Origin: Basidiobolus ranarum
Lineage: Eukaryota
DNA: 46,356 nucleotides
Assembly (NCBI GenBank): GCA_040143965.1
Contig: JASJQH010000024.1
Location: 1 to 46,356 of the forward strand
Reading direction: 5' to 3'
Shown here: positions 119 through 38,972 of the stretch, one piece after another
Layout: each line of letters opens with the position of its first letter
Numbering within the stretch: the stretch's first letter is position 1
Program-made: the position numbers and the translations under genes
Notes under the pieces: model-generated
Seen by the model: the letters and a program-made list of their open reading frames with translations, nothing else
What the model was told of the DNA's origin: nothing
Database searches by the model: none

Positions 119-123
119 GAATT

Positions 124-3406: not shown

Positions 3407-3461
3407 GGCGTTCAATAAAGAATATACTATGATTATTGATAAACAGCTGCCGAGCCTTCGC

Positions 3462-3468
3462 TTATATA
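3462..3468 (-). promoter_or_regulatory. TATA box of cyanase gene
   Basis: CTATATAAG on the minus strand ~55 nt upstream of the ATG. Confidence 0.55.
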
Positions 3469-8007: not shown

Positions 8008-8823
8008 ATGACCGAACGTAGTAAGAAAGCTTCTACTGGCCCCATCGAGGCTTCCATTGTAGTTCCAACTTTCCGTGAGGTTGGTAATATTGAACAATTA
8101 ACAAAGAGAGTGTATGCTGCTCTTCAAGAGCACCAGATGGAGAACTCGACTGAGATTATCATTGTTGACGATAACTCTCGTGATGGTACTGAGGAACTAG
8201 TAAATAAATTAGCCAGTGAAGGATATCCCGTTCGCGTCATCGTAAGAACTACTGAACGTGGTCTTTCAAGTGCAGTATTGAGAGGTTTCAACGAAGCACA
8301 AGGTGAACTTCTCTTATGCATGGATGCTGATCTTCAACATCCTCCCGAAAAAGTCCCAGAAATGTTGCAAGCCATTGATACCGCTAAAACTGGTGCCGAA
8401 TTTGCTATTGGTACTCGTTACGCTTCCGATGAGTTTGTTGTTGACGAAAACTGGCCTGTGTATCGTCAAGTGATCTCCAAAGGAGCTCGTTTAATGGCCC
8501 GTCCTTTGACTCCTCTCTCTGATCCTATGACTGGTTTCTTCTCCATTCGTCGTGAGGCCTACCTTCGTGCTCGCGACGTTAATTCCGTCGGATTCAAGAT
8601 CTGTTTGGAACTCTATGTCAAGTCAGACATTCGCAAACATGCTGAAGTTCCAATTATGTTTGGTGTGCGTACTGTTGGTGAAAGTAAACTCACTGGTAAA
8701 GTTATCATTAACTACTTGAATCAGCTTCAAGAGCTTTATCGTTACAAGCATTCTGTCCTCTGTCTCGCAACTCTTACCTTGATCATCTTCCTCTTCTTTT
8801 ATATCTTATCTTTTTTCGCTTAA
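8008..8823 (+). CDS. DPM1: Dolichol-phosphate mannosyltransferase (GT2), S. cerevisiae-type with C-terminal TM
   Basis: Motifs IIIVDDNSRDGT, RTTERGLSSAV, MDADLQHPPE, SDPMTGFF, GFKICLEL and GESKL, plus a hydrophobic C-terminal helix. Intronless. Confidence 0.95.
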   Translation: MTERSKKASTGPIEASIVVPTFREVGNIEQLTKRVYAALQEHQMENSTEIIIVDDNSRDGTEELVNKLASEGYPVRVIVRTTERGLSSAVLRGFNEAQGELLLCMDADLQHPPEKVPEMLQAIDTAKTGAEFAIGTRYASDEFVVDENWPVYRQVISKGARLMARPLTPLSDPMTGFFSIRREAYLRARDVNSVGFKICLELYVKSDIRKHAEVPIMFGVRTVGESKLTGKVIINYLNQLQELYRYKHSVLCLATLTLIIFLFFYILSFFA

Positions 8824-9121
8824 ACTTTTCTTGAATACTACTTTCACTTTCTCGTTAATGTAAGAAATAAATAAATCTTAAGCTTTCAATAATCAACAAC
8901 TATTTGAGTGTAGATAGTCCAAGTTGATCTAGCAAACTAGAATAACACCAAAATAACTCAATACTTGTGCCTTGTGCAAATAAACAATATTCGATTTAGT
9001 CAATATTAGCATGGAATTCATGCTAATTTAGTCACATATTTGATTCAGCCAACATCCAAAAAAATCATTTAATTTTATAAAGGTTACTAAAAAATTTGTC
9101 TTTGTCGTTTATCTCTCTAAT

Positions 9122-10607
9122 ATGGTGTTCATGTATCGAATTCGCACTATTCCTTGCAGGAATTTGGGTCAAACTACTTTCTTTAAGTTAAGACCTACCG
9201 CCGCCGTCTTCGCTGCTTCGAAAAGGTTCTCTTCTTCTCTTCACCAAGAGACTTTCGAGGTGACTAAGGAGCAAGTTAAAGTGGAGGGGAAAGTGTATCC
9301 AACTGACGAATCGACCAATGTCACTGCTTCCATTTTATCAAAGGTCGGACGAAACTTGCATAATATACCAGAGCATCCTCTAGGCATTATTAAGTCTCTG
9401 ATATATTCCAAATACTCAAACTTCGATAAATTTGATTCTTTCAGTCCAGTTGTGACTACCAAACAAAATTTTGACGATTTACTCATTCCACCTGGACATC
9501 CAGGTAGAGCTCTGACCGATACTTATTACCTTAATAGTAATACTATGCTACGGACCCATACTTCCGCTCACCAATCCGGTGTTTTAGAGAGTGGAAGTAC
9601 GAAGTTCTTGGTGACTGCCGATGTGTATCGTCGTGACGAAATAGACGCCAGTCATTATCCTGTATTCCATCAAATGGAAGGTGCTCAACTTTTTGACATG
9701 AATAAAACCGCTGAACAAGTTCGCGAAGATATCGAGGCTCAAATAGCCCACTTCGGTGAGGATAAGGTGATCAGTATTAACACTCAAGATAACACGATTA
9801 TTACCGAAAAGAACCCTCTACAAGATTGCCATTCAGAGGAAGCGGCCCAGGCTACTATCGCCCATTTAAAGCATTCACTCAACTCTATGGTCCGAGAATT
9901 GTTCAGCGATGAGAAGGATCTTCAAGTACGCTGGATTGACGCATATTTCCCATTTACGAGTCCCAGTTGGGAGATGGAGATTTTGTATAAAGGCGAGTGG
10001 TTGGAGGTGTTTGGATGCGGTGTAATTAAACAAGAGATTTTGAACAACGCAGGACAAAAGGATAAAATTGGTTGGGCCTTTGGACTTGGTTTGGAGCGAT
10101 TGGCCATGGTACTTTTCGGTATCCCCGATATTCGTCTCTTCTGGAGTCAAGATGAACGCTTCCTAAGCCAATTCAAAGATAAGGAAATCGTGAAATTCAA
10201 GCCGTTCTCCAAACATCCATCGTGCACCAAAGACATTAGCTTTTGGGTAAATGAAACGTTTCACGAAAACGATTTTTGCGAAATGATCCGTGATATTGCT
10301 GGGGATCTGGTTGAAGATGTCAAATTGGTAAGTCTCTTTTCAGGATGGTTAGTTCTATAAACTCGATATTAATAATGACATGCCGTAGGTGGATAGCTTT
10401 ACCCATCCCAAGAATAAGAAGCAAAGTCTATGCTACCGTATCAACTATCGCTCCATGGACAGGTAAGTATTTTGTGAGAAGAGCCCTTCACCTTCCATTC
10501 ACTAACATGCCCTCCATTATAGGAATGTAACCAACGAGGAAATCAATGCCCTTCAGGAGACTGTTCGTAGCCAGGTTGCTGAGCAATTGAAGGTCACCTT
10601 ACGCTAA
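9122..10607 (+). CDS. MSF1: Mitochondrial phenylalanyl-tRNA synthetase (3 exons)
   Basis: Arg-rich presequence, [51 protein letters not shown] and an anticodon-binding domain. Introns 10328-10388 and 10463-10522; TAA at 10605-10607. Confidence 0.96.
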
Positions 10608-15540: not shown

Positions 15541-18500
15541 CTAGGTCGTGTTTTCGGTTGAGGTAGCGCTGTTCGTATTCAAATGCCGTTCTAACAGTGT
15601 TCGGTACTTTTTCAATGACCATCTATTTTTCCTTCCTAAATTGGGGCCATCTGTTCCATTACCGAAACTAGGGGTGGCTAATGGTGATCCTACGGCAGCA
15701 AGGCTTTGATAATCAGTATCAGTCCCGTCCATACTACTGCAGGTGGTGGAAGAACCACCAGATAAGCGTTTAAGTGCATAGGTGAAAGGATTGGAGCTTC
15801 GAGGGGATGGGCTTGTGTTCTCAACTGATTGTGATGTCATGGAGGAAGAGAGTGTATAAAGAGGATCAAATGTAGCATTATCAGAAAGCTGACTATCTCG
15901 CTTATTCAAACCCAAGCTTTGAGGGCTCTCGATGTATTTATGAGAGTTCGATGCTGGAGTGATGGGTGTGGTAGGGGACATCTGTATTGAGGGTGGTGTG
16001 CTTTGATTGTTGTTACGGGAACTGGATACGTCAAATGATAACGGCGGGTGATGTAATGTGATGGTAGACTTCTTAGCTGAGATTCTTACTAATTCGTCGG
16101 CAAAGTTCTTACGGAACACTAGTATGTCAAATTAGTATAGCATACATTGACGAATAACTTCAAAACAAGTACTTACGCATATCTAAGTTCTCATGAAGTG
16201 GTCTCATCTCTGCTGGGGCAATACGATTGTGGATTTCAAGGCAACGTTGTATGACCAATGTCTACATAAACGCGAACTGTTAGCATTTAACTGACGAAAC
16301 TTGATTCTCTTATTCGAAAGACCTACCTGATCATCAATAAGTTGAAGCAATTTATCGACCGTTCTTTCTTTATCAGGATGCTGGCTAATAAACTCTTTGG
16401 TTAAGAAAGCTTGCTTATACATCGAAACACCTCCATTGACAGCTGCATCGATAGCTCCATTCAAAGCCATTGCCAAGGGATTACTATTAACTTTGGAGGT
16501 GTCCGTACCAACGTATACTCCATACTTCTTCTCCAGGCGTAGCAATTCTTTGGTTTTACTCTCCATGGCCATAACAGCATTCTCTACGGGGGATTGTTCT
16601 TTTACTACCATAGATACAACCTCAGCTCGACGCAGTAAAGATGGAAATTTGAATTCGGTGACAAAAATCGTCTTTTCTGTCCACAACATCAAAAATTCAT
16701 TCACCGCATCTGTAACTCCGGGAGACACTAACGCGTTGGCATCTGTGCCCACTTTAGCCTTTAATAAGGTACTGTTTCGGGGAGAGGCCATTTCGCCAGT
16801 AGGAGATTTCTTTACGGGACGAGAAAAACTAAAAGTATTTACTTCATTGGCCTCATAATATTCCCGAACAGGCCCTGGAACGAGGTCGGGTTTTTCTAGA
16901 ATAGGAAGCGTCAAATCAGGCTCAGGGGTAACTGCGGTGATTTGGAGATATTGTCCGTGTGAATAAAGAAGGGATTCCGAGGGAGCCCCATTAGAACTAA
17001 GGAGCCGAGCAGAAGGATGCTTATTTTGAATTCTATCGCAAAACGCGCTGATTTTCTCCCAAGCCAAACCTCGGTACACGTACTGCTTATTTCTAACACT
17101 AGTGGGGAATCCTTTTCCATAGAATCCAACTCGAAAATATTCGCTATAGTAGCGCTCTTTATGCAATATGTTCTCATAGAGCTGGGCTCTGGTACGGAGA
17201 ATAGCAGCAAGTTTATCATAATCAAACAAAACATGCTCGTATTGATTGGCTAGTTCCTTACAAACTTCTATGCCATGTTCCCAAGCTTGACCTTCATCGA
17301 AGTATTTGAGGATTTTAGATAGTAACAGCTCCTTTCGCTGAAAAGTGGTTTGCGCAGGAAGATCCAAGCTGCTCATGGCTTCTAGATCGTTGGTTGAGGA
17401 CCAATCTAAGAGATCAACATGAAGCTTGAGGGTGATTCCAGCTTCAGCAAAATTCAGACTTCGAAGGTGCATATCGACCAGCTGATGGACATACTTGATG
17501 TAAATATCATCTTGATTCATGATTTTGATGAATTTGAGTAGCTTCATGGTACCCATGATGCGTTCATCTTCATATTCATCTTCGTCAGGTAGATCACGCA
17601 CGTTCAGCAACAATTCTAAGAATTTGTTGACCGAATCGATTAGCTTTATGAGGGCAAGCTTTAAAGTCTCGTCGGACTTCTCTTTCTCGATCTTAGAGAT
17701 GAGCCCCTGAACGAATAAATCATATGTGGTCAAATCTCCTTTGACTTCGGTCATGACAAGATGCTCCAGTCGGTCGAAACATTCCACCTCCATATGCTTG
17801 AAATCCGACTTGATTTCGTATTCCGAAACCATAATCGAGTAGAGTATGTTTAGCGCACATTTACGCAGACTGTCGTGAAGTGAAAGATTCAAATCCAAAA
17901 TAGGTCCCAGCAGTGCAAGAATTATACTTCGATACTTTTCTTGACCAATTCTGGATTTGAACGATTCAAGGCAATACCACATGGAGATAAGAAGATCAGG
18001 TCCCTGGGTTCTGACGTCCTGGAGTAGGTAGATCGTAGCGTGTTGCATTTGAGGAGTGAGGGTCTCCACTTTGAGCCGTTTGTTCGCCAAAATAAACATC
18101 AAAACCGTGTAGAATTTAACCCAGATATTAACTACTAGCTCAGATATTCGAGTAGCACTATTCAGACTCTCCTTGAGAATGATACCAAGAGGAATCAGGG
18201 TTTTGAAAGCTATTCTCAGGGAAAGTACAGATAAATTAAGCCAATGTTTTGGAAATGCACTCTCCGATAAGATCGAGTGAAGAATATCGAGAAGTAGTAT
18301 TATGTCTTGGAGTCTCTCTGCTTTAGCCAAACATGTCTGAAAGTAGAGTCTCAGTTGGTTGGCTGATGTAAGGGATAAAAGTGTCAAAATCATGGATGCT
18401 GATTCTCCAAATATGTTAGAACATTCATCAGATATTTCGACAGGCAATAGGTCGGGAGAGGATGAGATTGGAGAAAGAGGGCCACTTAGTCCAGAGCTGT

Positions 18501-21500
18501 GCTTGGAAGCAACACCGGGATGCTCAAAGCCAGTCGGTGTTGATATTTGACGGAGTCTATGGTACACTCCCAAAAGAAGTGGTAATATATTTAGCATAGT
18601 TCCGATGTCAGAATCCTCCCATTCCTTCTCACTCAAATGAGTTTTTACCTCCCCTTGAGCATCATAATGCGTGGAATGAATCTTTTCCAGCATCTCCGTT
18701 ACGATGATGTTATTTAATCGAAGGGTTTCCTTCCATTGCTCTACATCCGCATAGTCGGTTATAGGCTGCTCCAAGTACTCTTCAGCCCATCCTACTGCGG
18801 CCTTGACTAGTGTGTGTCGAGATTCGGAACAATCAAACAGCACACCATGGATCAGTTGATACACAAGTCGTAGTCGATGGTGTGCAAGATTGCCTTTTCT
18901 AAAGCTGGCTATAGAGTTGACAAATGACACGGCCACAACTGCAAGATCATTAGCAGGAAAGCGAGTTACAAGATCCTGAAAGATGGTGTGATAGTATTGC
19001 TGCGCAATCGTCTGAGTTCCGAGAATCGAAAGTGGAGTAGTGAGAGACATCAGCTTATTGATGTCCTCGAAGAGCCCCCATAGGCTAGTTTTGAATTCCC
19101 CTTCGGTCTCTACCTGATTCTCGCATATGATAGGCGATTGAGGCTCAGTATCGTTACTGACGTTTTTACCTTTTTCCTCAGCTCTATGAATACCCCAAGA
19201 TTTAACAATCAGCTTAAATAAATATTCCCAAGCCTTTATACTCGAACGGAGCGCCATTGCTTGAGTTGAATCCACTGGATTGGAGAGCAGCTTCCTCATA
19301 GAGGTAATTAAATGTTGGGAGACCCGGGGTGAGGAGAAATGATCCTTGATATACACATCCAGAACTGGTCGGAAGTTAGTGAAGCGTCGATCAGATACTA
19401 TATTCAATACGAAGACCAACGCCGCAAATACTAAATCATCCAAAGTAGGGCCTGCCCCCGAGGCCGAGGGTTGACGCTGGTGAGTGCCCTGCCTGGTAGG
19501 GGCATCTTCATGTTGAAATGAAGACAGAGGAGCGCCCAGCAAATCGAACAATACGTCAAATATATCTTGAAGGAATTTAACAATCTCCAATTCACCTATA
19601 AATGTGAAGTTCTTCAAAATAGAACGCATGTCATGTCGAGTAAGCAGTGCCTCTTTCCAATGTAAAAGATTGACTAAGGATTCGCTGTGAGTCAATTTGG
19701 TCGAACATAAAAATGTTTTTACGCTAAAACTGTCTTTCAAGGCAACAAGTCCAGAAGTGGGATTCTTCATCAGATCCAAACTCTCAAACGGTTTGAGTTT
19801 GCTAGGCTTTGGCGCTTTGGTACTAGATTTCAGGTATGAAGTTGATGAGACAACCTTGGCATCATATTTATACAATGTTAGAGAATGTGTATCATCCGAC
19901 ACTATAGTGTGATGGTTGTCTAACGAGAGAGGTAAAAAGGCAAATGCAAATATGCTACTGTCGGTGGATTTCTCTTTACTACCTAGAGATATAGAAGATC
20001 CTGACTGTTCTTTACTGGAGCAATGTCGAAAGGTAAAGAAGATGTGGGCGCTCTTAAACACGTCTGGAGTTAGCTCAATTTTGATTGACTCATCCCATCT
20101 GGGATTATTGGAGTGATAAATTACTACAGACTCATACCGAGTTACATTGGCTTCTCCAGATCCACGGCATATAGCGCCATCTAATGCTGATCCGTTCCCA
20201 GTATTTGAACGAACCTCCACTTTGACTTGTATATTCTTGGCTGTTGTTCTGCGACCTTGCTGAAAATCACCGGAACATATGGTCAAATGCATAGCATTCC
20301 GACTGTCACCAGGAAGAACTACATCAGGAAATCCTAGCCTTGATGTGAGAGGAATATCAAGTAGCAGTGTTGGATGCTCTCTGATTAGAGTTTGCGCTTG
20401 TCCTTGAAACACGCGAAATGATACGCAGATACTTTCAGCCCTTGGGGATTGCTCATATTCGCCAGTTTGATTTATAATACTCTCGTGCAATGTGGCGAAG
20501 GTAGTGTCATTCCAAGGAGTAAATATCTTGACGACACATTCTCGCAAAGTGTCAACTTGATCACCGGCTTGAAGAATATCACTAACAGCAAGGACAGCAC
20601 ATCCAAAGGGTCTCCTGTAACTGTTGATCTCGTTGCCTATCTTGGTTGAATTTACACGATTTGAGATATCTACAGATGAGGAAGATGAAAGATCCGTAGC
20701 TTTATCCAGCAATAAGGTCCGACCAATACGGACTATTCTACACACCAGATACACTTGATCACTGATATCCTTCCGGGATAAGTCACTGAACAAGGTTCGC
20801 AGTCTACCAATCCGGTTGGTATCACGAGGCATCCCTTGAGATGTAAGAACAATCAGGAACACTTCACTAATGAATTTGGAGGTAGTTTTGTTGAACAAAG
20901 AGAAATGCAGCTCCGTGTATTCTCCTGTTAAACATATTGATGCCACAAAGGCCTTTAAATCGAAGAAGAGATGATACAAATTAGGGATGGTGTCTACTTC
21001 AGATTTGCTCAATCTCTTGCGAACAGGAGTCGAACTGAATCCCGATGGAGAATGGCTCGGATAAACATTCTCAACCAGTGCACTACTATCACCGGAGATC
21101 TCAACATGCTTTCTGTAGAGTGCCGTCAAAGGGGAGCTCTTCTCATCGATGGGAAGTCCTTTCTCGTTGTGAAGAACAATGGAATCTAACTTCTGTAATT
21201 TGTTACCAGACAAAATTGTATGAATTAACTCTGATCGCAGCTTGCTTAAATCCTCTAGGGATAATGTTTGTGAAAGAAGTTGTCTTCGACTCTTAAAAAG
21301 TGTGATCATGTGAGCCTTTACTTGGTTGAATAACTCATATTCGCACTTTCTTAAATATGTTTGTAAATAAGAACACCACTCTTTTAACACTGAAGTGATC
21401 ATGTCAACTAATGGCTCCGAAAATCCACTAGCTGTTCTATAGGATCCCATTTGAGAAATGGTTGGTGGCAATGGGCGAGTGTCATCGACTCCCTTTTCTT

Positions 21501-22068
21501 GTAGACTCAGCGGACGCATGCGATTTGTAGATATGGCAATGCTCCCACTAGTTGAATTCCTGAAAGAGTGTTCAGAGTTTGACCTTATCAAGGATGGCAT
21601 TTTAGGAAGTAACGCAGCAGGTTCTTTGGAAAGTCCTGCAGCTTTTCCTGGTTCCTCTGAATCAGTGAAAATAGTTGAAGTAGGGTGTAATTCGTCGATG
21701 GTATCGTGTAGTTTGTCATATTTATTCAGTTCGGTAGTCATAGAACTGGAATAAGCTCGACTCGGAAGGTAGGAGCGAATATGAACATGACTTACAGGGA
21801 ATATACCACAACGAGGTTGAGAATTTGGAGGGAATGTTGACACCACGTAACCCTTGTACCATTCACCCAATTGCTCAAATGCGTAAATAATGTCACCTAC
21901 TTCTAAATTGGCAAAGTATGACGTCCGAAGAGAAGCAAGTTGGGATATGAGCGGCTGAGGTGGTTCACTATCCTCCTGCACTTCATTGGTTGCACTAGGG
22001 TTGGCTAACGCAAAGGGGAAGATAGCTATTCCATTAGCAACTCGAGGAAGAGGTTGCCACTTTGGCAT
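15541..22068 (-). CDS. DOCK-family (DOCK1-5/Dck1-type) Rac GEF: SH3-like, DOCK_N, DHR-1 C2, DHR-2
   Basis: SH3-like LEVGD...WYKGY...GIFPVSHV, C2-region RRPFGCAV and YHSNNPRWDE, DHR-2 EYFRVGFYGKGFP and LNGAIDAAVNGG (nucleotide-sensor Val). Introns 16262-16326 and 16119-16176 join the 15541..16119 ORF as a Ser-rich tail. Confidence 0.95.
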
Positions 22069-22851
22069 ATTTTCATTCAATAGCGTTTATGGTATCACGA
22101 AATATGGAGTTTGGGTATCCAACACCAGAGAAAGTAATTCGTTCAACCAAAAAAGTTACAAAAGGTATACGCGGAAAAAATAGACTACTGGGAGGTGTAA
22201 TCCTAAGTCTTTTTCCAAACTTGGCTTGTAAATCCTTGGTTTGGTTAATATATGAGAATGGTGAAAGAGGGTGCAGATAGTAAATAGGAGGCGTAAAAGA
22301 AGCACCAAAAACTACTAATAGTAATATTCAGTATAATAGGCTATATGCAGTTAGAAAGCTTGTGTCACGATTGTGTCCTTTGCAAGCCTGGCTAACCAAG
22401 GCTTAAAGGTAAAATAGAATTACTTAACCACCTAACTATGGTTTAAGCTTCACAAATTGTAGTTAAACAATTGGAACGCCAGCTGTTAAATCACTACCAA
22501 TAAAACTAACATAAATATATGAAAATTACCCCTTTGTGGTTGGGAAGTTAGGGGCATCATATCCCTCTTCATCAGATTTGACCAATTCGATCAGATTACT
22601 ACGGGATACTAAATCGATTCAATCCTGTTGCGATATCTAGGGGGAATACCGCATTTACCAATCTACCACCCTAAGTTTGGTCAAAGTGGATAAATTTCAA
22701 TGTAATTTCATTGTAATTTTAGATTCACTCAATGATATTCTTGAAATCATTATGATAGTACTGTTGGAAATTAGTTGTTACCCTCAAGAAACATTGTTTA
22801 CTTTTCTACGAACTCAACACAACTTTACAATTTGTAAATACCAAATAGAGC

Positions 22852-24750
22852 ATGACGTTGGAGACCGTACAGGGGGTGGTAATTAAAGTACAAGCCAGTG
22901 AATCTTATGTCTATCCTTCATGTAGTAATTGCAGCGCAAAACTAGGCACGCAACCAGGATATAGGGGAAGTCCTGGCTTTCGAAGGTTAACTCAGAATTC
23001 CTATTCACCAAATGTGAAGAAGAATTCACAAAATAACGTTGTTACCCCAATCAAAACTCTGGATAACGTTAAAGCCTTAACACCTGGACCACAAATGTTT
23101 TGCTCTCGTTGTCATTCAGATTATTTAAGAGAATGCGTTTCTTTCAAGTTTAGACTAAGTTTTGTTATCGCCCAAGCTCAAGAATATAAATCTGGTATTC
23201 TTTTTCCATACTATACTTCAGTTAACCTACAAAACACTAATGTTTTGAACCCTCATTTAGTAACTGTCTTTGGTGAGGATCTAGATACTATATTTGGTTG
23301 TAACGCTACGGATTTTCGCAAATTTCTGCGTTTGATTTCTCAAAAGTCGAAATTAGACAGACTCGAACTAAAGAATGCGTTATTAGAGTCTTTAGAGTCG
23401 GTTATGGTTGGGCAATTGTTTACGTTGAAAATTTTTCGAACTAAATCTACCAAGAGAACTTTACTTCAAAACAAACGGATTCCATTATCAGACAAAACAT
23501 CCGAGTACTTATCCAAGTTGAGACTTGGTAAAGACAACGAGGATTGGAAAGTAAGACAAATCAGGCCAGTGTACGGTCTTTCGAATACAGTGTTTTTCTA
23601 TTTAAGAGAAAGACTGAATTTGTCACCAGATTGTTTATCACAAGAGACAGATGTTTATATGTTTAGCTCGAAAAACCTTCTCAAGATGTTGGACGCGAAG
23701 AAATATGATGATCCTTGGTTAAAAGAACCTAATCAAGTAAAGGCTAATTCACCTCCACCCCAGATTCAAAATACAATGAATGCCGAGTGGGAGTATGGAT
23801 CTTTGGATGAAAGTGATTATACTGTAAAGCATACCCTAGAACAGAGTCATGATGGGGCTATAAAGAACATAAACTTATCCCCTTTCGCCCCACATGACAC
23901 CCAAAATCCTTGCTCATTTCTCTCAATTCCCGAATATGGTGATATCGATGAGAATCTCCGTAAAAAGATGAGCAACTCTCAGGTTTTCCGAATGTATACC
24001 CAAGGACGGAACTTCGATGACATGTCGCCTTATGTTTCGCATCTACTCCCAAATAGCTCTCTCCCTACACACACCTCCACGCCTACACGATATGATTTGC
24101 TGTCTGCTAGTCAGGCTAGTCAATTTTTTGACGATTTCTATGACGGCACTCCCAACAGTCAGAATATGGAACCAGCTCTCTCTATTGCCGATCTGACGAC
24201 TCCATGTCAGCTCAAAAGATTTTCAAACAAAAGCCCTATTAAGCCTGCTGAGGATGTTCATGAACACCCAAAGCAACATGTCGAATTACAAGGTGATAAA
24301 AGCACCCATAACTTCCAAATTACGAAGAAATCCACAACGCTATTAGTTGCTGAAACCCCTGAAAATCCAAAGGCAGAATTTCGAAACTGGATGTATACAA
24401 CGCCTACTGATATTCAAACCCCAACAAAATCACATTCAATTTCATCTCTTCGTTTGGCAGGATGTCGTTGGTATCCACTTCTTAAGTATCATGAAAGTCA
24501 TGGCTCAGTTAAAGGTAAAAGTACCATACCCGCTCCAGACCATACACCCAACTTTCATGAAGTTATTCCTGAGACTCCTTTGAAGCCCAAAAACTCCACT
24601 AATTGTATGAATTCACCGTTGTATATACCTGATTCTGTAAAAAGATTTGTTCCAGAAACACCTGCTAAGGAGCCTTATGAGATGCCAAACCAAGAGCAAA
24701 GTTTCTGGTTAGATGACGATATCATCCCACCATCAGATGAAGAGGACTAG
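22852..24750 (+). CDS. DDIAS/noxin-like protein: RPA1-C-type Zn-OB fold plus disordered S/T-P tail
   Basis: YVYPSCSNC...FCSRC...FKFRLSFVIA...(S)VTVFGEDLDTIFGCNATDF closely resembles the DDIAS N-terminus as recalled (FIYPSCQKC...YRYKLSLKVA...ITVFGSCLDTFFGLTATGL). Probable in-frame 66-nt intron at 23195-23260. Confidence 0.8.
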   Translation: MTLETVQGVVIKVQASESYVYPSCSNCSAKLGTQPGYRGSPGFRRLTQNSYSPNVKKNSQNNVVTPIKTLDNVKALTPGPQMFCSRCHSDYLRECVSFKFRLSFVIAQAQEYKSGILFPYYTSVNLQNTNVLNPHLVTVFGEDLDTIFGCNATDFRKFLRLISQKSKLDRLELKNALLESLESVMVGQLFTLKIFRTKSTKRTLLQNKRIPLSDKTSEYLSKLRLGKDNEDWKVRQIRPVYGLSNTVFFYLRERLNLSPDCLSQETDVYMFSSKNLLKMLDAKKYDDPWLKEPNQVKANSPPPQIQNTMNAEWEYGSLDESDYTVKHTLEQSHDGAIKNINLSPFAPHDTQNPCSFLSIPEYGDIDENLRKKMSNSQVFRMYTQGRNFDDMSPYVSHLLPNSSLPTHTSTPTRYDLLSASQASQFFDDFYDGTPNSQNMEPALSIADLTTPCQLKRFSNKSPIKPAEDVHEHPKQHVELQGDKSTHNFQITKKSTTLLVAETPENPKAEFRNWMYTTPTDIQTPTKSHSISSLRLAGCRWYPLLKYHESHGSVKGKSTIPAPDHTPNFHEVIPETPLKPKNSTNCMNSPLYIPDSVKRFVPETPAKEPYEMPNQEQSFWLDDDIIPPSDEED

Positions 24751-25020: not shown

Positions 25021-28000
25021 TTACACACGAATAGCCCAAGGCTTTTCACCCTCCTTGGGTACTATCTTAGAGAGAGTAGCAATTTCATCAGCACAGGCCA
25101 TACGAATTTGTTCTGCAGTTGCTGGATGGGAGAGGGTAAAGGTTTCAGTGACATTGCTATCCTTGCGAGCAGCAGAGATAGCATCACGAATAGCGTAGTA
25201 GACAGAAGTACCCAAGAAGAAAGGTGGTTCTCCAACACCTTTACTGCCGTGGATAGTTTTAAGGTTCTTGTACTCAACACCATCAAGAAGATCAACACGG
25301 AACTTTTGAGGAATATCACGGAATCCTGGAATTTTATAATTTCCTGGGCCTCGAGTAAAGAGCATACCGTTGGGGAAAAATAGAGTTTCTTCCATTGTTG
25401 ACCAACCAGCTCCTTGCAACCAAGCACCCTCCACTTGACCAAGATCAATTGAGTAATTGAGTGACTGCCCAACATCCATGAGTACGTCAGTGCTTAAAAC
25501 TGTATGATCACCAGTGAGAATATCAATTTCTACCTCAGAAACTGCAACTCCCAATGTGAAATAGAAGAACATCATTCCTTCGTTCTTACCCCAGGTATAA
25601 CCAATATCAGGAGTTTTGTAATGACCATTAGCAGAGAGATTCACGCGATCGAAATAAGCAGCCTTAGCAAGATCACCAAGAGAAGCATCAGGCATCTTTT
25701 CGCGATATGGTCTCAATCTCTCGGAAACTTCGTCACATGCGGCTTTAACAGCTTGACCATTAAGATCAGAACCCGCTGAGGCAGCAGTAGGACTTGTGTT
25801 TGCAACAGTATTGGTAGATGTTTCACTAATAAACACTTTATCCAATGGAACATTCAAGGCTTCGGCGGCAATCTGAGCCATCTTGGTATGAATACCTTGT
25901 CCCATCTCGATACCTCCATGAGTTAAAAGGACAGAGCCGTCGGTATAAATGTGGACAAGCGCACCAGCTTGATTAAGGAATCTAGCTGTGAATGAAATAC
26001 CGAACTTGGTGGGAATAATGGCAAGTCCTCTCTTCTTGAATTTGTGAATTTTGTTAAACTCGTCAACTTCACGGCGTTTGTTCTCGTAATCGGAAGTTTC
26101 CTTGATTTGCTTCCACATGAGAGGAATGTGCCAATCGGTAAGTTCTTGATTGAAATGAGTCAATTGACCCTCCTTATACATGTTGATCTCACGGAAATCA
26201 TCAACAGGAATCTTAAGTTTCTCTGCAACTTCATAAACCCAGTTCTCACAAATAACCATGCCTTGAGGGCCACCGAAACCTCTGTAAGCAGTGTTGGAAT
26301 GGATATTGGTGATACAGGCTTTACCAATGACACGAACATGGGGGATGTAGTAACAGTTGTCACTATGGGACATGGCACGCTCAACAACAGCCATGGTCAA
26401 ATCAGCAGACCAACCAGCATTAGCATATAGTTGGAGGTCTAATGCTTGGACTTTACCATCATTATTGACACCGACCTTCCATCTACCCAAGAATGGATGT
26501 CTTTGACCAGTTAACAGCATATCTTCATCACGATCAAGCATACAACGAATAGGCTTGCGTAAGTGGTGAGCGGCAATAGCTAGAGGAGCGGACACCATTA
26601 TAGTTCTACTCTCTTTACCACCGAAACCTCCACCAAGACGTTTGGTACGAATAACAATTCTGCTGTCAGAACAGCCAAGAACTTTAGCTACAACATGTTG
26701 AGTTTCGGTTGGATTTTGAGTGCTGCTGAAAATCTCCATTTCGTCGCCTTCTTTTGGAACAACGATACAAGCATTGGTTTCAAGATAGAAATGTTCTTGA
26801 CCACCAACCTTAGCCTCACCTTCAAATATATTGTCACAATTTTTGAATGCCTCATCAACATCTCCGCGAATAATCTCTCTATCAGCTGGGACATACGACT
26901 CCTTTTCAATCGCCTCTTCAATGGTAAGAATATGTGGAAGCTCCTCATACTCGATATGGACCATTCTAGAAGCGGCCTGTGCTTGATCCTGGGTTTTTGC
27001 AACGACTATACCAATAATTTGGCCCAAGAAAAATACCTCATCACTAGCAAAAATCTCTTCATCTTGGAAGACAGCACCCCAGGTGTTGCAACCAGGTACA
27101 TCTTTGGCAGAAAAGAACCCTACAACACCATCGGCTTCTTCAGCAACTTGTGAATCGATCTTGAGAATCTTGGCATGAGCTTTCTTGGAGGTAACCATAG
27201 CACCGTAAAGCTCACCACTGTAAGAAGGCATATCATCAACATATATGGCCTCTCCAGTGACTTGTTTAATAGCACTTAAGTGAGCAACATTTTTACCAAC
27301 GATAGATTCCGGACGAGTAGGCATAGATTGCGAAGCTTGTGAAACTGTACGTTCAATGTCCTTCAATTCGTTGGCAAACTTAGCTTCAGGAATATCAAGA
27401 CCTAGTTTGTTTGCAACATCACACCAGAATTTATAGAAGAAACTGGAAGCTAAAGCTTTACGATACTCAGCCATACCACCTGGAGAGGAATATTGAATGG
27501 GAAGATCGAATCCAAGTCGCTTAACAACTTCTAAATAATCCTCACGATAACCCCATTCTTTGCCGACCAAGTATTCCATAGCAGAACTAGCTTGAATAGT
27601 AGTAGGACCCATACCACCAAAGGCGAAAACGGAATCCTTGACAAAGAATTTTTCGTCTTTCTTTTCAAACTTGACTCTTAAACCGCCATTGACAATAGCG
27701 ATATCATCATCTTTTCTTTTCGCCTGTTTGAAAGATTGAGTGTATTCGAATTCAGATGTGAATGGAACAGTCAAAGAAACTACAACTTCTCCAGGACGAA
27801 GTGCAGTTTTACGATATCCAAGGAAGAATTCAGTCATTTTGATGGACCGTAAGCCACCATCTTTGGAGGCAACAACCATTACAGCTCGAGAAGTGACAAA
27901 CACAGGATTAAGATCCGAAATAGGGGAAGCAGTTACAATATTTCCAGCAATAGTACCAACGTTTCTGATTTGACGACCAGCGAACCAACGGAGATTGCTA

Positions 28001-29163
28001 AGATATGCTTTGAAATTTTCAGTCTTGGAGGAATCGTATTTCTCGACTGCTTCTTTTAAAACATGTTCGAAACTAGATAAAGTGATGTTTGCACCGAAGG
28101 TTATTCCATCTGAATTATATTCGACCTTTCTTAATTCTTTAATGTCTCCAACATAGATCATAACTGGATAGTAGATGTGCTTGAACTTGATTTCAATTCC
28201 GACTTCAGAATTACCGGCGATAATCTTAGCATCTGGATACTCGGCTTTGAGTTGAAGAAGCTCTTCAAGCTCAAGAGGACGATACCATTTGTATTTGTTA
28301 TTGGAAAATGCCAAAGGTCTGAGGCCACTGTTAACTTCGTTTTCAGCATGAGCATATTTGATCAAACCAGGAGGGAAAATCAATTCTTGAGAAGGATCGT
28401 ACTTCTTGAACTTAATTTTTTCAAATCTATCGTCAATCACTGTGTCGAGTTGGTCGTCAATCTCTTTGTTATCTTGGCAACAACCGCCAGCTCTACCACA
28501 ACCTTTAGTAGCTTCTACTTTGACTACTTCCTCTTTGACATCTTGGCAACAGCCCCCAGCCTTTTTTTCACCGCAACAACCACCTGCGGGGGTAGCAAAC
28601 GTTTTGGCGGCATCTAAAATGGGTCTGTAGCCAGTACAACGACAGAGATTTCCATCAAAAGCCTCTTCAATATCGTGCTCAGTAGGGTTAGGGTTGTTTC
28701 TCAATAATGCATAAAGAGACATGACGATTCCAGGAGTACAGAAACCGCATTGTGATCCGTGACTCAGAGCAATTCTTTCTTGGACTGGATGAGGATTTTT
28801 GGAGTTACCGAGGCCTTCGACAGTTATAACATGTTTTCCGTCCATAGAACAAAGTGGGGCCAAGCAAGCATTGACGGAAGTGTGGAAAATTTTGCGAGTA
28901 TCTGGGTCGTAAGAAGAAACCAATAGTGTACAGGCCCCTAAATATTTGGTTATATCATTAATAAACTATTGTCCACCTGCTTTACTACAAAATCAAAGAA
29001 AAGACATACCGCAACCACCTTCACCACAGCCCAATTTAGTGCCAGTCAAGCCAGCGTGACGAAGATACTGAAGAAGAGTCATTTCAGGGTCAGGGTTCCT
29101 GAGTACAACGCGAGACCCATTGACATAAAAAGTCAAAGTATCTGAATAACTTTGAACGCTCAT
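25021..29163 (-). CDS. XDH: Xanthine dehydrogenase (2Fe-2S/FAD/Moco), 2 exons
   Basis: [14 protein letters not shown] spans intron 28938-29009. Also [50 protein letters not shown] and KGVGEPP. Substrate-site Glu and Arg equivalents are present. Confidence 0.97.
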
Positions 29164-30440: not shown

Positions 30441-31354
30441 ATGAATGTTCCTAGCCTTGACTCGGTAAGTGTTTATTTATACAATCCTTCCAGAGGAATT
30501 ATTCTAAATTTCTTTTCTGATTTTTCTAGATTACCCTTAAGAACATTCGCACTCAAGTTCCACAAGCCTATACGCTTACGCAAAGAGATATATCTCGTTT
30601 CTGGTATGCCAATAAGGGTCATTTCAAAGAAACTTGTAAAAGTTTAACTGAAACTATGGTAAATTTCGAGCACTTTTATATACATTAGTTTGATGGTATA
30701 TTAAATGAAACATTCAAATAGCACTGGCGTCATAGTTTTAACTACGATAAAATTCTCGAAGAAGACTTCTCTGATCTTATCAAGACGCGAAAAGTCTTTT
30801 TTCATGGAAATGCCAAAGATGGAACCCCAGTATTAGTCTGGAGAAGTTGTAAACATTTTGCCAATTACGAGGAACGTGAACGGGAAAAGCGTTTTTATGT
30901 ATGGGTTATGGCTAAGGCTGAGAAAGAAGGGATTCTACCTGGTAAAGTGACTATCGTCTATGATCGTACTGACGCTACAAAAGCCAATGCTGACCTTGGT
31001 CTAGCAAAGGAGGTCTTTCCACTATTTCAAAACCACTTTCCTGAACGTCTTCAAAATGTGTTCGTATTTCCATCATCCTTTTTATTGAGCTCGTTATGGT
31101 ATTGTATAAGACCTTTTGTTGATACTGTAACCGCACAAAAAGTACATATTTGGAAAGAGCACGAGTATCAGTCCAATATCTTGGAGTATATTGATACGGA
31201 AAATTTACTAGAAAGATTCGGAGGCAAAGGGGTCGAGTCAACTGGTACATCCATTGGTACAGAAACTGTGAAAGCATTCCCCCCACCTACCCCAGAAGTT
31301 CACTGTATGGTAGAAGAAACCATCCAAACTCCTGTTGTAACAGAAGTTGCATGA
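30441..31354 (+). CDS. CRAL-TRIO/Sec14-like lipid-binding protein (3 exons)
   Basis: Exons 30441-30464, 30530-30658 and 30722-31354. Motifs FFHGNAKDGTPV, FQNHFPERL, LWYCIRPFVDTVTAQKV and LLERFGG. Confidence 0.9.
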
Positions 31355-32399: not shown

Positions 32400-35300
32400 T
32401 TACTTGGATCCAATCCACTTTGATTTGACTGAATTGTGATTATCTAAGGTTGAAGTTGAACGTAAAGAACGAAATGTATTGGAGCGAGGGATGCTAGCTG
32501 TTCGAACGACGCGTTTCATAAAACTATTTTGTGAGGAGTTGTGAGAATTCAAATGGTGTAGCTCTTGAACTTCTCGACGTAGCTGATCCAAGTCATTTTT
32601 CATCGCGTGACGTACATATTCCTCAGATACCTCGTTGCCATCAAGTTCAAGATTATTCAAATGTTGTCCAAACAATTCTCCTTCCTCTTCCCCGGTGTTG
32701 TATAGATTTTCAGCCACACATTGCTGGCGAAGAAGGATGTTCTGTGTAATTAACGATTCTAGGCCAAGGTCATTGCCGAAGAATCTGCGAAGCTTTGAAA
32801 GCTTTTTCTGACGGTTTACCTTATTTACGCCATCGCTAGCTAGACTACCATCATCATCAGATACTTCTTCTTCACTAAAAGTATCCAAGTTATTTTCAGT
32901 GGATCCAAAACCAGTGGACGACTGATCATCTCTGATTCCTGACAATAGTTCGAGATAGTGCATTAGGTCTTCTACTGAGTTTTCCGTCTCTAGAAGATAG
33001 GATACGATAGAGGAGCGTTTTTGGAGAGGAACCTCGGTTTCCTTATTAACTTTAATAAACTCTTTGGGCGGATGTTGACCAAATACTTTCTCAAGCTTGT
33101 TGGCCCTCTTCACCTGTAGCTTTCGAATTTCAGGCGGTGCTGTTTTAGCATTTCGATAGATCATGCTCTCGGTACGCTTCACATTTGAAGATCCATTCTC
33201 AATTTCGTTGGGAGATGGGTATATACCTAAGAGTTGGTGCAGTTTGACGAGCTTTTTTCGTTTGATTTCTTTAGAGTTAAGCCTCGAAGGGAATTCTTGA
33301 TCATCCGAATCTTGTTCACACTTCTCGGACTCTGATACAGGAGAATTGTAACAATCAGCTGGGTCTTTGTTGGGATCGCAATTTAATTTATGAGCCATTA
33401 TTGGATTTGTTAGCGATTTGGAGACAAATTGCTCATCCATTGGTTCTCCGAAAAGCAGTTTTAGTTTTCGCGTACGCTTTGTAAGTAATCGACGTTCTTC
33501 TGGAGAAAGATCATTGTAGGTAGTCAACGGACACAGTGGAGCAGGCCCATCAGATTCAAAAGAGTCCCGGGTCTCGAAGTCCTCCTCTGAATTGACCAAG
33601 TTCTGATGAGCTAGCTGATTAGTCGAAAGCCTTTTTCCAAAGAAATCTTCCAACTTCCCGAGCTTTTCGATCTTCTTCTTTTTCATTGTTTCATGATTCA
33701 TGTTCCACGAAAAATCATCATCTGGTAGACATTCTGGTGATTTAGATGGTGTATTGGAAGATGGAAATAGTTCATCTATAATTTGTTGGATGCTCTCTTT
33801 TTCAGCAGATCGCTGTCCCATTAGTCTAGCTAGCTTCTTCTTCATCATGATTCTTTTGGTATTTTGTTCAGCATTCGGGTGTCTTGACCCAGTAAAGTAA
33901 GGGCTCATTGGGATGGGTGTGAACATTTGATTCATGATTTGTTCAAGTATGTTGTCTCGTTCTTGTAATGCACTCTGCATATCTAACTGATTTTCCTGGT
34001 ATCTACTAATAGTATCCATCACAGTAGCCACAGTACCAATATCAAACTGTAACCACTTAGTTGTCGACTCGCTAATATAAGCCTCTTCGAAATTCGCGCC
34101 ATCTAGAAAAGAAAAGAACCTTAATAATGTGGAATTAAAGCCATATCTTGTAGACTCTGTTACCAATGGTTCTATCTTGTACAAGTTTAACATAGAGATC
34201 ACTGGCTTCGAACTGGGGTAGAATATTATGGACCAACAAATCAAATATATATTCCTGTGCTTCATCAAATATACTCAGATTGGGGAGGTGCTCGGGAGAG
34301 AGTATCGATGGGGGTATAGCATTTCTGAGTTCATCTGGAATGTTGATACGTAGCGGACCATCGTTGGAAATATAAACCTTGTAAAGGTAATCGGCAATGA
34401 CAGGGACCAAAGAAGATTTTGTACATCTATAAACCTCTACTTCGACCCAAAAGAGAAAATTCTCCAACGCATATTCTTGTAAACAAAATTGTCGGAAATA
34501 ATTTAGACAGATTTTGTTTTGAAAAATGCCTTGAAATTTGACTTCAGCTGAATTATTCTTGAGCGTTGAGGTGAGTTCACTTATTCCGTAAGAATCATGT
34601 GGCTTTTTGTTGATGGTGCAATTTCTGGGGAGAGCAACACTACCTCGTTTCTCATCCAAAATATTGTCCCAAGGCCGAAATTTCTCCGGGGGGCAAGACC
34701 ATCTTCTAGTGTCATCTTGAAGAATTTCATGTGTGTCGCTCGTATTAGCCATATCTAGTAAAGAACCACAAGTCAATTTTTAGCTACAAGCAAACGTAAT
34801 ATGACGAATTAAGGTAAAAACCAACCTTCGTAAATATTCACTACACGTATGATGTCATTTTCATTCAAGACATTTCCAATAGTATCGGAAAAAATCAACT
34901 CCACTTTTCCCGAAAATATAGCACCGCAAATTAGAGGCTTAGCATTGCCTTCACCATCGTCCTCAAAAATTTGCTCAGGCCCTAAAAGCTCCGAATCGTT
35001 CAAATCTTCCATTAAACCTTTATCGAGAAGCTGTTTCAGACTTTGTGTAGACTCTTTAACATAATCCAAGCTGCTAGCGGGAGTGGGTGAGCATAGGTAG
35101 TTGAAAGAATATTCAGCTTCAATTAATTTGGATAATTCTTCCACAGTACTTGAGCGTGATATGGTTACCGGAAAATAGTGATTCAAAGATACAAAAACAA
35201 TCACTCGTATGTAAGACTCAATATGTTCAAACGCTCTTTGGTTACGTGCGGCTTGAATTCTCAACCGTCGTGTTCGACGGGGGAATTGGTTCAAGCAAAA

Positions 35301-38513: not shown

Positions 38514-38972
38514 TTATATTCCTTTGGCCTTTGTGGGTAAAGGACGATATTTCTTGGGTATAAATCTACCCCACATACGAAGAGCAATCTGTTGGAAATG
38601 AAGACGTCTACCAAAAATTGTACCAACAGTAACTAAAATACAGGAATAAAGAGGAAGAGTAGTCGCTAAGTAAGCTCCTCGATATGACCAAGGGCCTTCT
38701 GTGAAAGAGCCTTCCACACCAAGAACATCTTTTAATACTGGTCGAACTACTTTTACAGTACTAGAACCAGTTATAGCAAAAACTGTCATAATAATACTCC
38801 ATTCTTTCCACCAAGGCCAACTCCATCGTGTGAGATTCAGTCCTTCCGGAACTAGGGAAAAGTTCCGAACTTGTAGACCAGCTCTAAATGAAGAAGTTTT
38901 AGAACTGCTTGAGAGAAGAGTGCTGCGAACAGGAGTAGCAAGTGTGTAACGGCGTAGGGCTGTGGTGAACAT
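38514..38972 (-). CDS. DUF6787-like small membrane protein with mitochondrial presequence, intronless
   Basis: N-terminus is Arg/Ser-rich and lacks acidic residues (MFTTALRRYTLATPVRSTLL...RNFS). Core motifs VFAITGSS and PLYSCILVTVGTIFG...F resemble DUF6787 as recalled. Confidence 0.75.
   Translation of the reverse strand: MFTTALRRYTLATPVRSTLLSSSSKTSSFRAGLQVRNFSLVPEGLNLTRWSWPWWKEWSIIMTVFAITGSSTVKVVRPVLKDVLGVEGSFTEGPWSYRGAYLATTLPLYSCILVTVGTIFGRRLHFQQIALRMWGRFIPKKYRPLPTKAKGI

What the first reader, a model, noticed from the sequence alone, without database searches (positions are those of the whole stretch)
24340..24750. Array of TOPBP1/Rad4/Dpb11 BRCT-type phospho-docking motifs in the DDIAS-like tail
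Seen: five related motifs in the last ~135 aa: LLVAETP (24346), EVIPETP (24565), LYIPDSV (24622), RFVPETP (24649) and terminal DIIPPSDEED. An SQ/TQ-rich stretch lies upstream (HDTQ, NSQ, YTQ, SASQASQ, NSQ). Knowledge: hydrophobic-hydrophobic-x-x-pT/pS(-P) is the TOPBP1/Rad4 BRCT1/2 ligand pattern (53BP1 IPETP, Treslin VAETP, acidic RAD9 tail). Inference: a CDK/CK2-gated multivalent scaffold linking an ssDNA-binding OB fold to TOPBP1, which would be an undescribed fungal DNA-repair or mitotic module.
Basis: partly seen in the sequence, partly recalled or inferred. Interest (0 to 1): 0.75.

Follow-up and report, generated by a model that had tools for sequence, protein, structure and literature searches.

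The report
Fungal DDIAS with rewired TOPBP1-docking tail
An early-branching fungus carries a relative of the human mitotic DNA-protection protein DDIAS, whose tail keeps four short motifs predicted to dock the scaffold TOPBP1, three of them at different pockets than in humans, and its genome also encodes the partners TOPBP1 and CIP2A, so this pathway likely predates the split of animals and fungi.

Summary
The motifs are present, in the tail of a 610-aa protein of Basidiobolus ranarum (window 22852-24750, one 66-nt intron). The protein is a DDIAS-family member: its N-terminal Zn-ribbon OB domain hits animal DDIAS first, and a mammalian DDIAS domain finds only this locus in the genome.

Four of the five motifs are kept in B. 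meristosporus in a tail only 37% identical; LYIPDSV is lost. Three (LLVAETP, VIPETP, FVPETP) fit the TOPBP1 BRCT1/2 consensus. The terminal IIPPSDEED fits BRCT5 better and resembles a vertebrate DDIAS motif. The SQ/TQ stretch is not significant.

The genome also holds a TOPBP1 with BRCT7/8 and two CIP2A-site-like motifs, a CIP2A and an MDC1-like gene.

The design (ssDNA OB fold plus multivalent phospho-docking on TOPBP1) is already described for human DDIAS, which uses BRCT5 and BRCT7/8. New here are the fungal occurrence of the trio and the switch to CDK-type BRCT1/2 motifs. Against generality: 0 of 4 Glomeromycota and 0 of 12 animal homologues carry these three motifs. Binding is untested. 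Verdict: new variant of a known kind.

The parts
22852..23194 (+). Exon 1 of the DDIAS-family gene (start ATG, first half of the OB domain, all four Zn cysteines)
23195..23260 (+). 66-nt in-frame GT-AG intron; its removal gives the annotated 610-aa protein P0002
   Evidence: spliced form equals P0002 and scores 86.6 bits against 67.6 unspliced on an animal-DDIAS profile; the 22 residues are absent in B. meristosporus; no RNA check
23261..24750 (+). Exon 2 (rest of the OB domain and the disordered tail, to the stop)
22852..23625 (+). DDIAS-type Zn-ribbon OB domain (C24, C27, C84, C87; end approximate), predicted ssDNA binder
22948..23091 (+). About 45-50-residue insertion between the two CxxC pairs, with conserved VVTPIK and LTPGP; Glomeromycota homologues also have an insertion here, animals do not
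24100..24129 (+). Conserved LSASQ(A/T)SQFF island holding the only two conserved SQ sites; role unknown
   Evidence: no significant match to the animal DDIAS helix motif
24340..24360 (+). LLVAETP (T480 spliced): hydrophobic triplet at -5/-4/-3, E at -1, P at +1; predicted BRCT1 ligand
   Evidence: 6 of 6 core residues conserved; consensus from PMC6175577
24415..24432 (+). QTPTKS: conserved full CDK consensus site, not a BRCT motif
24559..24579 (+). EVIPETP (T553): predicted BRCT1/2 ligand; T-P-x-K here but not in B. meristosporus
   Evidence: 5 of 6 conserved
24619..24639 (+). LYIPDSV (S573): fits the loose pattern but is not conserved; not counted as a motif
   Evidence: 0 of 6 conserved
24643..24663 (+). 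RFVPETP (T581): predicted BRCT1/2 ligand, full CDK consensus in both species, 28 residues after T553
   Evidence: 5 of 6 conserved
24718..24747 (+). DIIPPSDEED (S606): Pro at -1, acidic flanks (CK2 consensus); predicted BRCT5 ligand, like vertebrate DDIAS EW[IV]PP[ST]
   Evidence: 5 of 6 conserved; best window for the vertebrate block in both species, P=0.030 and 0.0026

Best explanation
The gene encodes a fungal DDIAS-family protein, a Zn-ribbon OB domain followed by a low-complexity tail with four conserved short motifs, which likely works as a phosphorylation-gated adaptor between single-stranded DNA and the TOPBP1-CIP2A complex. Shown: the sequence, the family, conservation of four motifs in a sister species, and TOPBP1, CIP2A and MDC1-like genes in the same genome. 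Inferred: CDK phosphorylates T480, T553 and T581, and an acidophilic kinase (CK2 or Polo) phosphorylates S606. Two of the three ETP sites would then fill BRCT1 and BRCT2 together, most simply T553/T581, while S606 fills BRCT5. The OB domain would bind ssDNA left on chromosomes at G2/M and protect it or help resolve it, as human DDIAS does. The inferred difference from humans is the docking surface: BRCT1/2 plus BRCT5 and direct CDK control, instead of BRCT7/8 plus BRCT5 and a CDK1-to-PLK1 relay.
For: Family. An HMM search of 1.84 billion proteins gave 19 hits: 2 Basidiobolus and 17 others. Of the 10 looked up, 7 are named DDIAS/noxin, 2 are Glomeromycota and 1 is unnamed. The three top Atlas hits (0.92-0.93) are chordate clusters, two named DDIAS. 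An animal-DDIAS profile scores this protein 86.6 bits and the genome's own unspliced RPA1 C-terminal frames about 20. A mammalian DDIAS domain finds only this locus. The Zn cysteines and 3 of 4 basic positions mutated in the human ssDNA-binding mutant are kept.

Motifs. The four cores are 5-6 of 6 identical in a 37%-identical tail, whereas only 19 of 294 six-residue windows outside the motifs reach 5 of 6. The register matches the published consensus. The T553-T581 spacing is 28 (26 in B. meristosporus), against 28 for MDC1 S168/S196 and 32 for Treslin T969/S1001.

Partners. The TOPBP1-like gene at G000:C248 has a BRCT7/8 matching human TOPBP1 at E 2.5e-32. It keeps the phosphate-binding lysines of BRCT1 and BRCT2. 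It has two F-D-x4-L-x2-L motifs between BRCT5 and BRCT6, matching 4 of the 5 residues needed for CIP2A binding. The CIP2A_N family hits G000:C212 over its cut-off in two collinear exons.
Against: No binding, phosphorylation or expression data.

The ETP motifs are seen only in two species of one genus: 0 of 4 Glomeromycota homologues (276-376 aa, one labelled partial) and 0 of 12 animal homologues have the strict pattern. The BRCT7/8 motif, present in 11 of 12 animal proteins, is absent, and no S-T-P Polo-box site is conserved.

Single [IV][PA]ETP matches sit in unrelated proteins such as a sugar transporter, fatty acid synthase and UPF1 (13 of 18 frames scanned got a family, none a DNA-repair family), so one match alone means little.

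The BRCT5 resemblance is modest (P=0.03 here) and was one of four blocks tested. The BRCT2 Trp is Arg in this TOPBP1 and no BRCT0 was found (a search without a positive control), so specificities may differ. The second CIP2A exon ranks a repeat enzyme above CIP2A by summed score. One of the 19 profile hits (P0014) is a false positive.
Confidence: 0.68

Rival explanations
1. The protein is DDIAS, but the ETP repeats are cell-cycle control sites rather than TOPBP1 ligands: CDK or MAPK sites acting as Cks1 priming sites, Pin1 sites or a degron, so that the tail sets timing or turnover.
For: 8 of 14 S/T-P sites in the tail are conserved. P-E-T-P fits a Cks1-type pattern at T553 and T581 in both species (consensus recalled, not from a call). 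Full CDK sites outside the motifs (QTPTK, VVTPIK) are conserved too.
Against: It does not explain why hydrophobic residues at -4/-3 and E at -1 are kept at three sites. T480 (A at -2) is not a Cks1-type site. No Cdc4-type degron, conserved PP2A-B56 motif or conserved SIM was found (recalled patterns). The terminal IIPPS motif has no proline at +1.
Confidence: 0.14
2. The tail does bind TOPBP1 BRCT1/2, but in interphase: the protein acts like RHINO, Treslin or the 9-1-1 tail, bringing TOPBP1 to ssDNA for checkpoint or replication control, independent of CIP2A and mitosis.
For: BRCT1/2 are the pockets used by RAD9, Treslin, RHNO1, Crb2, Sld3 and Mdb1. The human mitotic wiring (BRCT7/8 motifs, PLK1 site) is missing.
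Against: CIP2A and its likely binding sites on TOPBP1 are kept in the genome. The BRCT5-type motif resembles that of vertebrate DDIAS. Human MDC1 uses BRCT1/2 in mitosis, so these pockets are not interphase-only.
Confidence: 0.12
3. The motifs bind another phospho-reader (the PTIP/Brc1-like, NBS1-like or MDC1-like BRCT/FHA proteins of this genome), or arose by local duplication in Basidiobolus and have no partner.
For: These other BRCT proteins exist in the genome (identities read from sequence). The motifs are confined to one genus among the homologues found.
Against: Canonical tandem BRCT pairs read residues downstream of the phosphosite (pS-x-x-F), whereas conservation here is upstream. Conservation is focused on the motifs while their flanks have diverged.
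Confidence: 0.06

Closest known systems
Human DDIAS (C11orf82/noxin) in the CIP2A-TOPBP1 mitotic complex (bioRxiv 10.1101/2025.09.09.675193; 10.1101/2025.09.09.675108)
   Same: Single N-terminal RPA1-C-like Zn OB domain starting at residue 1; long unstructured tail; several phospho-motifs in the C-terminal half; a BRCT5-type Pro(-1) motif; TOPBP1 with BRCT7/8 and CIP2A in the same genome.
   Different: No pS/T-x-D/E-L-Y/F BRCT7/8 motifs (two in human) and no conserved S-T-P PLK1 site. It has three BRCT1/2-type ETP motifs that 0 of 12 animal homologues have. It is 610 aa against 998, with an insertion inside the Zn ribbon.
Dual-site TOPBP1/Rad4 BRCT1/2 ligands: Treslin pT969/pS1001, MDC1 pS168/pS196, Sld3 pT636/pT650, Crb2 pT187/pT235, 53BP1 pT670 (PMC6175577, PMC8651625, PMC6509287)
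   Same: Same motif register and similar spacing (28 residues for T553/T581); VAETP is the Treslin T969 core.
   Different: Three such sites plus a BRCT5-type site on one tail, attached to an ssDNA-type OB domain; no homology to those proteins outside the motifs was seen.
BRCT5 ligands BLM pS304 and 53BP1 pS366
   Same: Hydrophobic -4/-3 and Pro at -1.
   Different: Acidic CK2-type downstream residues rather than S-P; the TOPBP1 Tyr678 contact was not checked against the human sequence.
RPA1 C-terminal OB domain; SPIDR and SHLD2 OB domains
   Same: Same Zn-ribbon OB superfamily.
   Different: Scores stay below Pfam cut-offs; a canonical RPA1 lies elsewhere in the genome (G000:C54); SPIDR and SHLD2 carry tandem C-terminal OB folds, this protein one N-terminal one.

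Membership tests
DDIAS | N-terminal RPA1-C-like OB domain closer to DDIAS than to RPA1, SPIDR or SHLD2 | tested here: met
   no tree was built
DDIAS | Four Zn-binding cysteines (human C25, C28 and the second pair) | tested here: met
   C24, C27, C84, C87
DDIAS | Basic surface residues needed for ssDNA binding (human R3, R31, R56, K58) | tested here: inconclusive
   K30, K99 and R101 align with three of four; R3 is not kept
DDIAS | ssDNA binding | not testable with these tools
   needs EMSA
DDIAS | BRCT7/8 motifs pS/T-x-D/E-L-Y/F | tested here: not met
   0 in both Basidiobolus tails; present in 11 of 12 animal proteins. A feature of the animal branch, so it limits 'same wiring', not orthology
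DDIAS | PLK1 Polo-box S-T-P site | tested here: not met
   HTSTP is not conserved (TTP in B. meristosporus); one S-[ST]-P is what chance gives
DDIAS | BRCT5 (BLM-like) motif | tested here: met
   IIPPS in both species; best window for the vertebrate block, P=0.030 and 0.0026. That this block is human T868 is inferred from its position; the papers' figures were not visible
DDIAS | CIP2A and a TOPBP1 with CIP2A-binding segment in the same organism | tested here: met
   (F, D, L, L kept; V839 is T)
TOPBP1/Rad4 BRCT1/2 ligand | Hydrophobic residue at -3 (and -4/-5 for BRCT1), D/E at -1, S/T acceptor | tested here: met
   T480, T553, T581 in both species
TOPBP1/Rad4 BRCT1/2 ligand | Receptor has intact phosphate pockets | tested here: met
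   BRCT1 VGSEKY against human VGSKKY; BRCT2 EGRKF against KGQKY; T-G-L starts read from exon translations; W257 is R
TOPBP1/Rad4 BRCT1/2 ligand | Phosphorylation in vivo and phospho-dependent binding | not testable with these tools
RPA1 (Rfa1) | Four OB domains with the Zn OB at the C-terminus; Rep_fac-A_C above cut-off | tested here: not met
   21.5 bits against a cut-off of 28.5, single N-terminal domain; true RPA1 at G000:C54, 139.5 bits
SPIDR / SHLD2 | Tandem C-terminal OB folds | tested here: not met
   DUF4503 14.9 bits against 27, over 36 residues only; SHLD2 cluster 0.75
ATM/ATR SQ/TQ cluster | Dense, conserved SQ/TQ sites | tested here: not met
   6 against 3.0 expected, P=0.06; 2 of 6 conserved

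The most novel reading that the evidence does not exclude
The CIP2A-TOPBP1-DDIAS mitotic module dates from the common ancestor of animals and fungi, and in Basidiobolus DDIAS has reversed its role. By taking TOPBP1's BRCT1/2 pockets, the ones MDC1 and 9-1-1 use as anchors, it would itself recruit TOPBP1-CIP2A to ssDNA under direct CDK control. That would be a natural MDC1-independent recruitment route, the step still unexplained in human cells. The loss of the BRCT2 Trp in this TOPBP1 would be a matching change that lets all three double-hydrophobic motifs bind.
Probability: 0.22. Interest if true: 0.68.

Novelty: new variant of a known kind. Interest (0 to 1): 0.46.

Why it matters
The CIP2A-TOPBP1-DDIAS pathway is a synthetic-lethal target in BRCA-deficient cells and has been studied only in vertebrates in the papers read; the two DDIAS preprints contain neither 'fung' nor 'yeast'. 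Finding all three genes, and both predicted interfaces, in an early-branching fungus moves the origin of the pathway back. It also gives a natural case of short motifs switching between pockets of one scaffold, with four named phosphosites that can be tested directly. The 2023 review PMC10566317 notes that a second, MDC1-independent way of recruiting CIP2A-TOPBP1 is unknown; this variant suggests one. The specialist surprise is moderate, because the general design is published and the motif switch is so far seen in one genus.

Tried and rejected
Searches that gave nothing:
- No RNA holder was listed for the gene, so expression and the intron were not checked with reads.
- Two metagenome scans found no relative (596 and 13 pattern matches, none confirmed).
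- Three word-index protein searches gave only 2 Basidiobolus, 4 Glomeromycota, 3 coral and one unnamed fragment. They are insensitive (one search missed P0006), so absence from other fungi is not shown.
- A single-sequence PDB search of the unspliced domain found nothing; the profile found RPA1-C.
- TopBP1_BRCT0 found nothing in the genome, without a positive control.

The structure prediction had not finished, so no model or fold search of my own exists; only the Atlas model was used (low overall confidence, OB part TM 0.73 by the target to a plant RPA1-C-like cluster).

Readings rejected:
- LYIPDSV as a fifth motif (not conserved).
- An SQ/TQ cluster.
- Homology of LSASQASQFF to the animal D-x-[LF]-P-S-S-E-x-L-x-x-F helix motif. 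It looked plausible by eye, but P=0.90 in an ungapped test.
- BRCT7/8 and Polo-box motifs.
- RPA1, SPIDR or SHLD2 identity.
- P0014 as a homologue (a CxxCH repeat protein).
- A single ETP match as a marker of DNA-repair proteins.

Literature searches for a fungal DDIAS or CIP2A-TOPBP1 module listed none by title or abstract start. Only 15 of 27 papers were listed, and subscription journals are not covered. The preprints' figures and supplements could not be seen; an ortholog alignment there is described as vertebrate only.
Full report
1. Observation. The finding lies at the 3' end of a + strand ORF, 22852-24750, between a DOCK-family gene (opposite strand, upstream) and xanthine dehydrogenase. 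All five strings are there. The protein databases hold the gene as a 610-aa hypothetical protein of Basidiobolus ranarum (P0002) and its orthologue in B. meristosporus (P0003, 612 aa). P0002 equals the ORF minus a 66-nt GT-AG intron at 23195-23260. Residue numbers below are for the spliced form.

2. Is it more than chance? In 20,000 shuffles of the tail (residues 250-610), the pattern taken from the literature occurs 4 times against 0.56 expected (P=0.002). Genome-wide, DNA able to code [IVM][PA]ETP occurs 181 times against 94 and 90 for controls, partly inflated by one repeated 14-mer. Of the 100 places listed, 3 are this gene. I fetched 56 of the other 97, leaving out 35 that start with ATG and 6 on small contigs. 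Of the 56, 11 have a hydrophobic residue at -4 and none has a second strict motif in the same open frame. Of 18 such frames scanned, 13 belong to unrelated families and 5 have none. A single match is therefore weak, and the triple is exceptional in this sample.

3. Conservation. The OB region is 68% identical between the two species and the tail 37%. The cores (-4 to +1) of T480, T553, T581 and S606 are 6, 5, 5 and 5 of 6 identical; LYIPDSV is 0 of 6. Outside the motifs 19 of 294 windows reach 5 of 6. Of the tail's S/T-P sites 8 of 14 are kept, but only 2 of 6 S/T-Q sites, and S/T-Q is not clearly enriched (P=0.06). So there are four motifs and no SQ/TQ cluster.

4. Family. A two-sequence profile run over 1.84 billion proteins gave 19 hits. 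Apart from the two queries and one false positive (P0014), all align to the N-terminal domain. Of the ten looked up, seven are named DDIAS or noxin (mammals, lizards, a fish, a soft coral), two are Glomeromycota proteins and one is unnamed. The Atlas ranks three chordate clusters first (0.92-0.93, two named DDIAS), above POT1 and SHLD2. A profile of 13 animal domains scores P0002 at 86.6 bits and the genome's own RPA1 frames, unspliced, at about 20. A mammalian DDIAS domain finds only this locus in the genome, and a canonical RPA1 lies on another contig. The joint profile finds RPA1-C structures in the PDB (E 7e-10). The four Zn cysteines and three of the four basic positions of the human DNA-binding mutant are kept. 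No tree was built and my own structure prediction did not finish.

5. Which pockets? From PMC6175577 (passages) and PMC8651625 (passages and section 3.5): BRCT1 and BRCT2 need a hydrophobic residue at -3 and often D/E at -1; BRCT1 also takes hydrophobic -4/-5; BRCT4/5 ligands prefer Pro at -1. LLVAETP has the full BRCT1 triplet. VIPETP and FVPETP fit BRCT1 or BRCT2 and lie 28 residues apart, the spacing of MDC1 S168/S196 (PMC6509287, passages). The terminal IIPPS has Pro at -1 and is the best window in both species for a block built from five vertebrate-type DDIAS EW[IV]PP[ST] motifs (P=0.030 and 0.0026; one of four blocks tested). I infer from position that this block is the human T868 BRCT5 site. 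Its acidic continuation also resembles MDC1 S196, a CK2 site that binds BRCT2, so the assignment is not certain.

6. Human DDIAS. From the two preprints I read the abstracts and the sections on recruitment, kinases, the OB fold and (for .675108) the discussion; figures and supplements were not visible. Human DDIAS binds ssDNA through its OB fold. It binds TOPBP1 multivalently through pS676 and pS993 (BRCT7/8; consensus pS/T-x-D/E-L-Y/F) and pT868 (BRCT5), with a PLK1 site at T775 under CDK1 control, and its OB fold is not needed for foci. In my sample the BRCT7/8 motif is in 11 of 12 animal proteins and in neither Basidiobolus protein, while the strict ETP motif is in both Basidiobolus proteins and in 0 of 12 animal ones (the 12 include isoforms and near-duplicates). 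The four Glomeromycota homologues are short and carry neither strict motif; two have one loose match. This counts against a general fungal module, although one is labelled partial and the others may be incomplete models.

7. Partners in the genome. G000:C248 holds a multi-BRCT gene. Its last pair matches human TOPBP1 BRCT7/8 at E 2.5e-32, ahead of SLF1; the review states that yeast homologues lack this pair. BRCT1 and BRCT2 keep the phosphate-binding lysines, and the BRCT2 Trp that narrows the pocket is Arg. Between BRCT5 and BRCT6 lie two F-D-T-T-x-x-L-x-x-L segments. The human CIP2A site needs F837, D838, V839, L843 and L846 (PMC10566317 and bioRxiv 2021.02.08.430060, passages), so four of five match in both copies. 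The pattern occurs 4 times in 446,038 translated positions of the other loci, plus once more in a frame of this locus that overlaps an intron. G000:C212 has two collinear exons over the CIP2A_N cut-off. The first has human CIP2A as best PDB hit (E 2e-9, residues 153-226); for the second a repeat enzyme ranks above CIP2A by summed weak pieces. An earlier agent's note on the same genome also calls this a CIP2A gene; it is not independent evidence. G000:C8521 reads as MDC1-like (FHA-like start, acidic VIDSDDD, C-terminal BRCT pair); the FHA call is by eye only.

8. Mechanism. Shown: family, motifs, conservation in one sister species, partner genes. Inferred: CDK phosphorylates the three T-P sites and CK2 or Polo phosphorylates S606. 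The tail would then engage BRCT1 and BRCT2 with two of the three ETP sites and BRCT5 with S606, joining an ssDNA-binding domain to TOPBP1-CIP2A at G2/M. I put this at about 0.68 (DDIAS orthology about 0.9; TOPBP1 as the reader of the motifs about 0.8; mitotic CIP2A context less sure). The rivals are plain CDK timing sites (0.14), an interphase TOPBP1 adaptor (0.12), and another reader or none (0.06). Because BRCT1/2 are the pockets by which MDC1 anchors TOPBP1 in human mitosis, the fungal protein may be an anchor rather than a passenger; that is the bold reading (0.22).

9. Novelty. Searches for DDIAS with TOPBP1, with 'fung', with related OB proteins, for CIP2A with fungi and phylogeny, and for TOPBP1 with Basidiobolus (listings only, except the papers named above, PMC10238375 and PMC11377751, passages) showed no report of a fungal DDIAS. 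The scan's own index has no DDIAS finding. Subscription journals and database annotations were not covered. Verdict: a real feature, a new variant of a known kind, interest 0.46.

Noticed in passing
L016 (G000:C248:200-10199) 1570-7852 +: TOPBP1-like gene of animal-type architecture, with BRCT7/8 and two F-D-T-T-x-x-L-x-x-L segments (L016 4991 and 5126) where human TOPBP1 binds CIP2A; no BRCT0 found.
   Followed up: partly
L016 2436-2528 +: The Trp described as conserved in BRCT2 domains (human W257) is Arg in this TOPBP1, which could widen the pocket to a BRCT1-like one.
   Followed up: partly
L015 (G000:C212:4500-13000) about 1970-6130 +: CIP2A-like gene: armadillo exons over the Pfam cut-off, followed by coiled-coil-like exons.
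   Followed up: partly
L081 (G000:C8521:900-5289) about 3-3160 -: MDC1/Mdb1-like gene: FHA-like N-terminus, acidic VIDSDDDD site resembling MDC1's TOPBP1 sites, S-D-T-like stretches, C-terminal BRCT pair.
   Followed up: partly
P0024-P0026, P0010, P0016, P0018, P0020, P0022: Coral and vertebrate DDIAS share a motif D-x-[LF]-P-[SF]-S-E-x-L-x-x-F (twice in corals) upstream of the four motifs described in the preprints; it was not mentioned in the sections read and may be an unknown binding site.
   Followed up: partly
P0024-P0026: Coral DDIAS proteins carry one to three [ST]-x-D-L-F BRCT7/8-type motifs but no BRCT5-type motif, so motif content varies within animals too.
   Followed up: partly
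P0006, P0027, P0028: Glomeromycota DDIAS-like proteins share EDHFDLDLF-like and FDKHGDI-like tail motifs that are absent from Basidiobolus; unexplained.
   Followed up: no
window 22948-23091 +: Insertion inside the Zn ribbon with conserved T-P sites (VVTPIK is a full CDK consensus); could regulate DNA binding.
   Followed up: partly
window 16204-22086 - and 25021-28965 -: Neighbours are a DOCK-family GEF (1960-codon open frame, head-to-head with the gene, about 770 nt apart) and xanthine dehydrogenase (1314-codon open frame); no functional link seen.
   Followed up: partly
window 5516-7048 -, 7960-8820 +, 9044-10357 +, 30722-31351 +, 34138-34779 -, 38517-38984 -: Other genes by Pfam: ThrE exporter, glycosyltransferase 2, Phe-tRNA synthetase, CRAL/TRIO, RGS domain, DUF6787; 32403-34274 - and 43820-44563 + have no family.
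   Followed up: no
L016 1072-1143: Short tandem repeat of about 15 nt, four to five copies, upstream of the TOPBP1-like gene (seen by eye).
   Followed up: no
G000 small contigs C1154-C6692: An identical 14-mer recurs on more than 20 small contigs in the pattern search, probably part of a repeated element.
   Followed up: no
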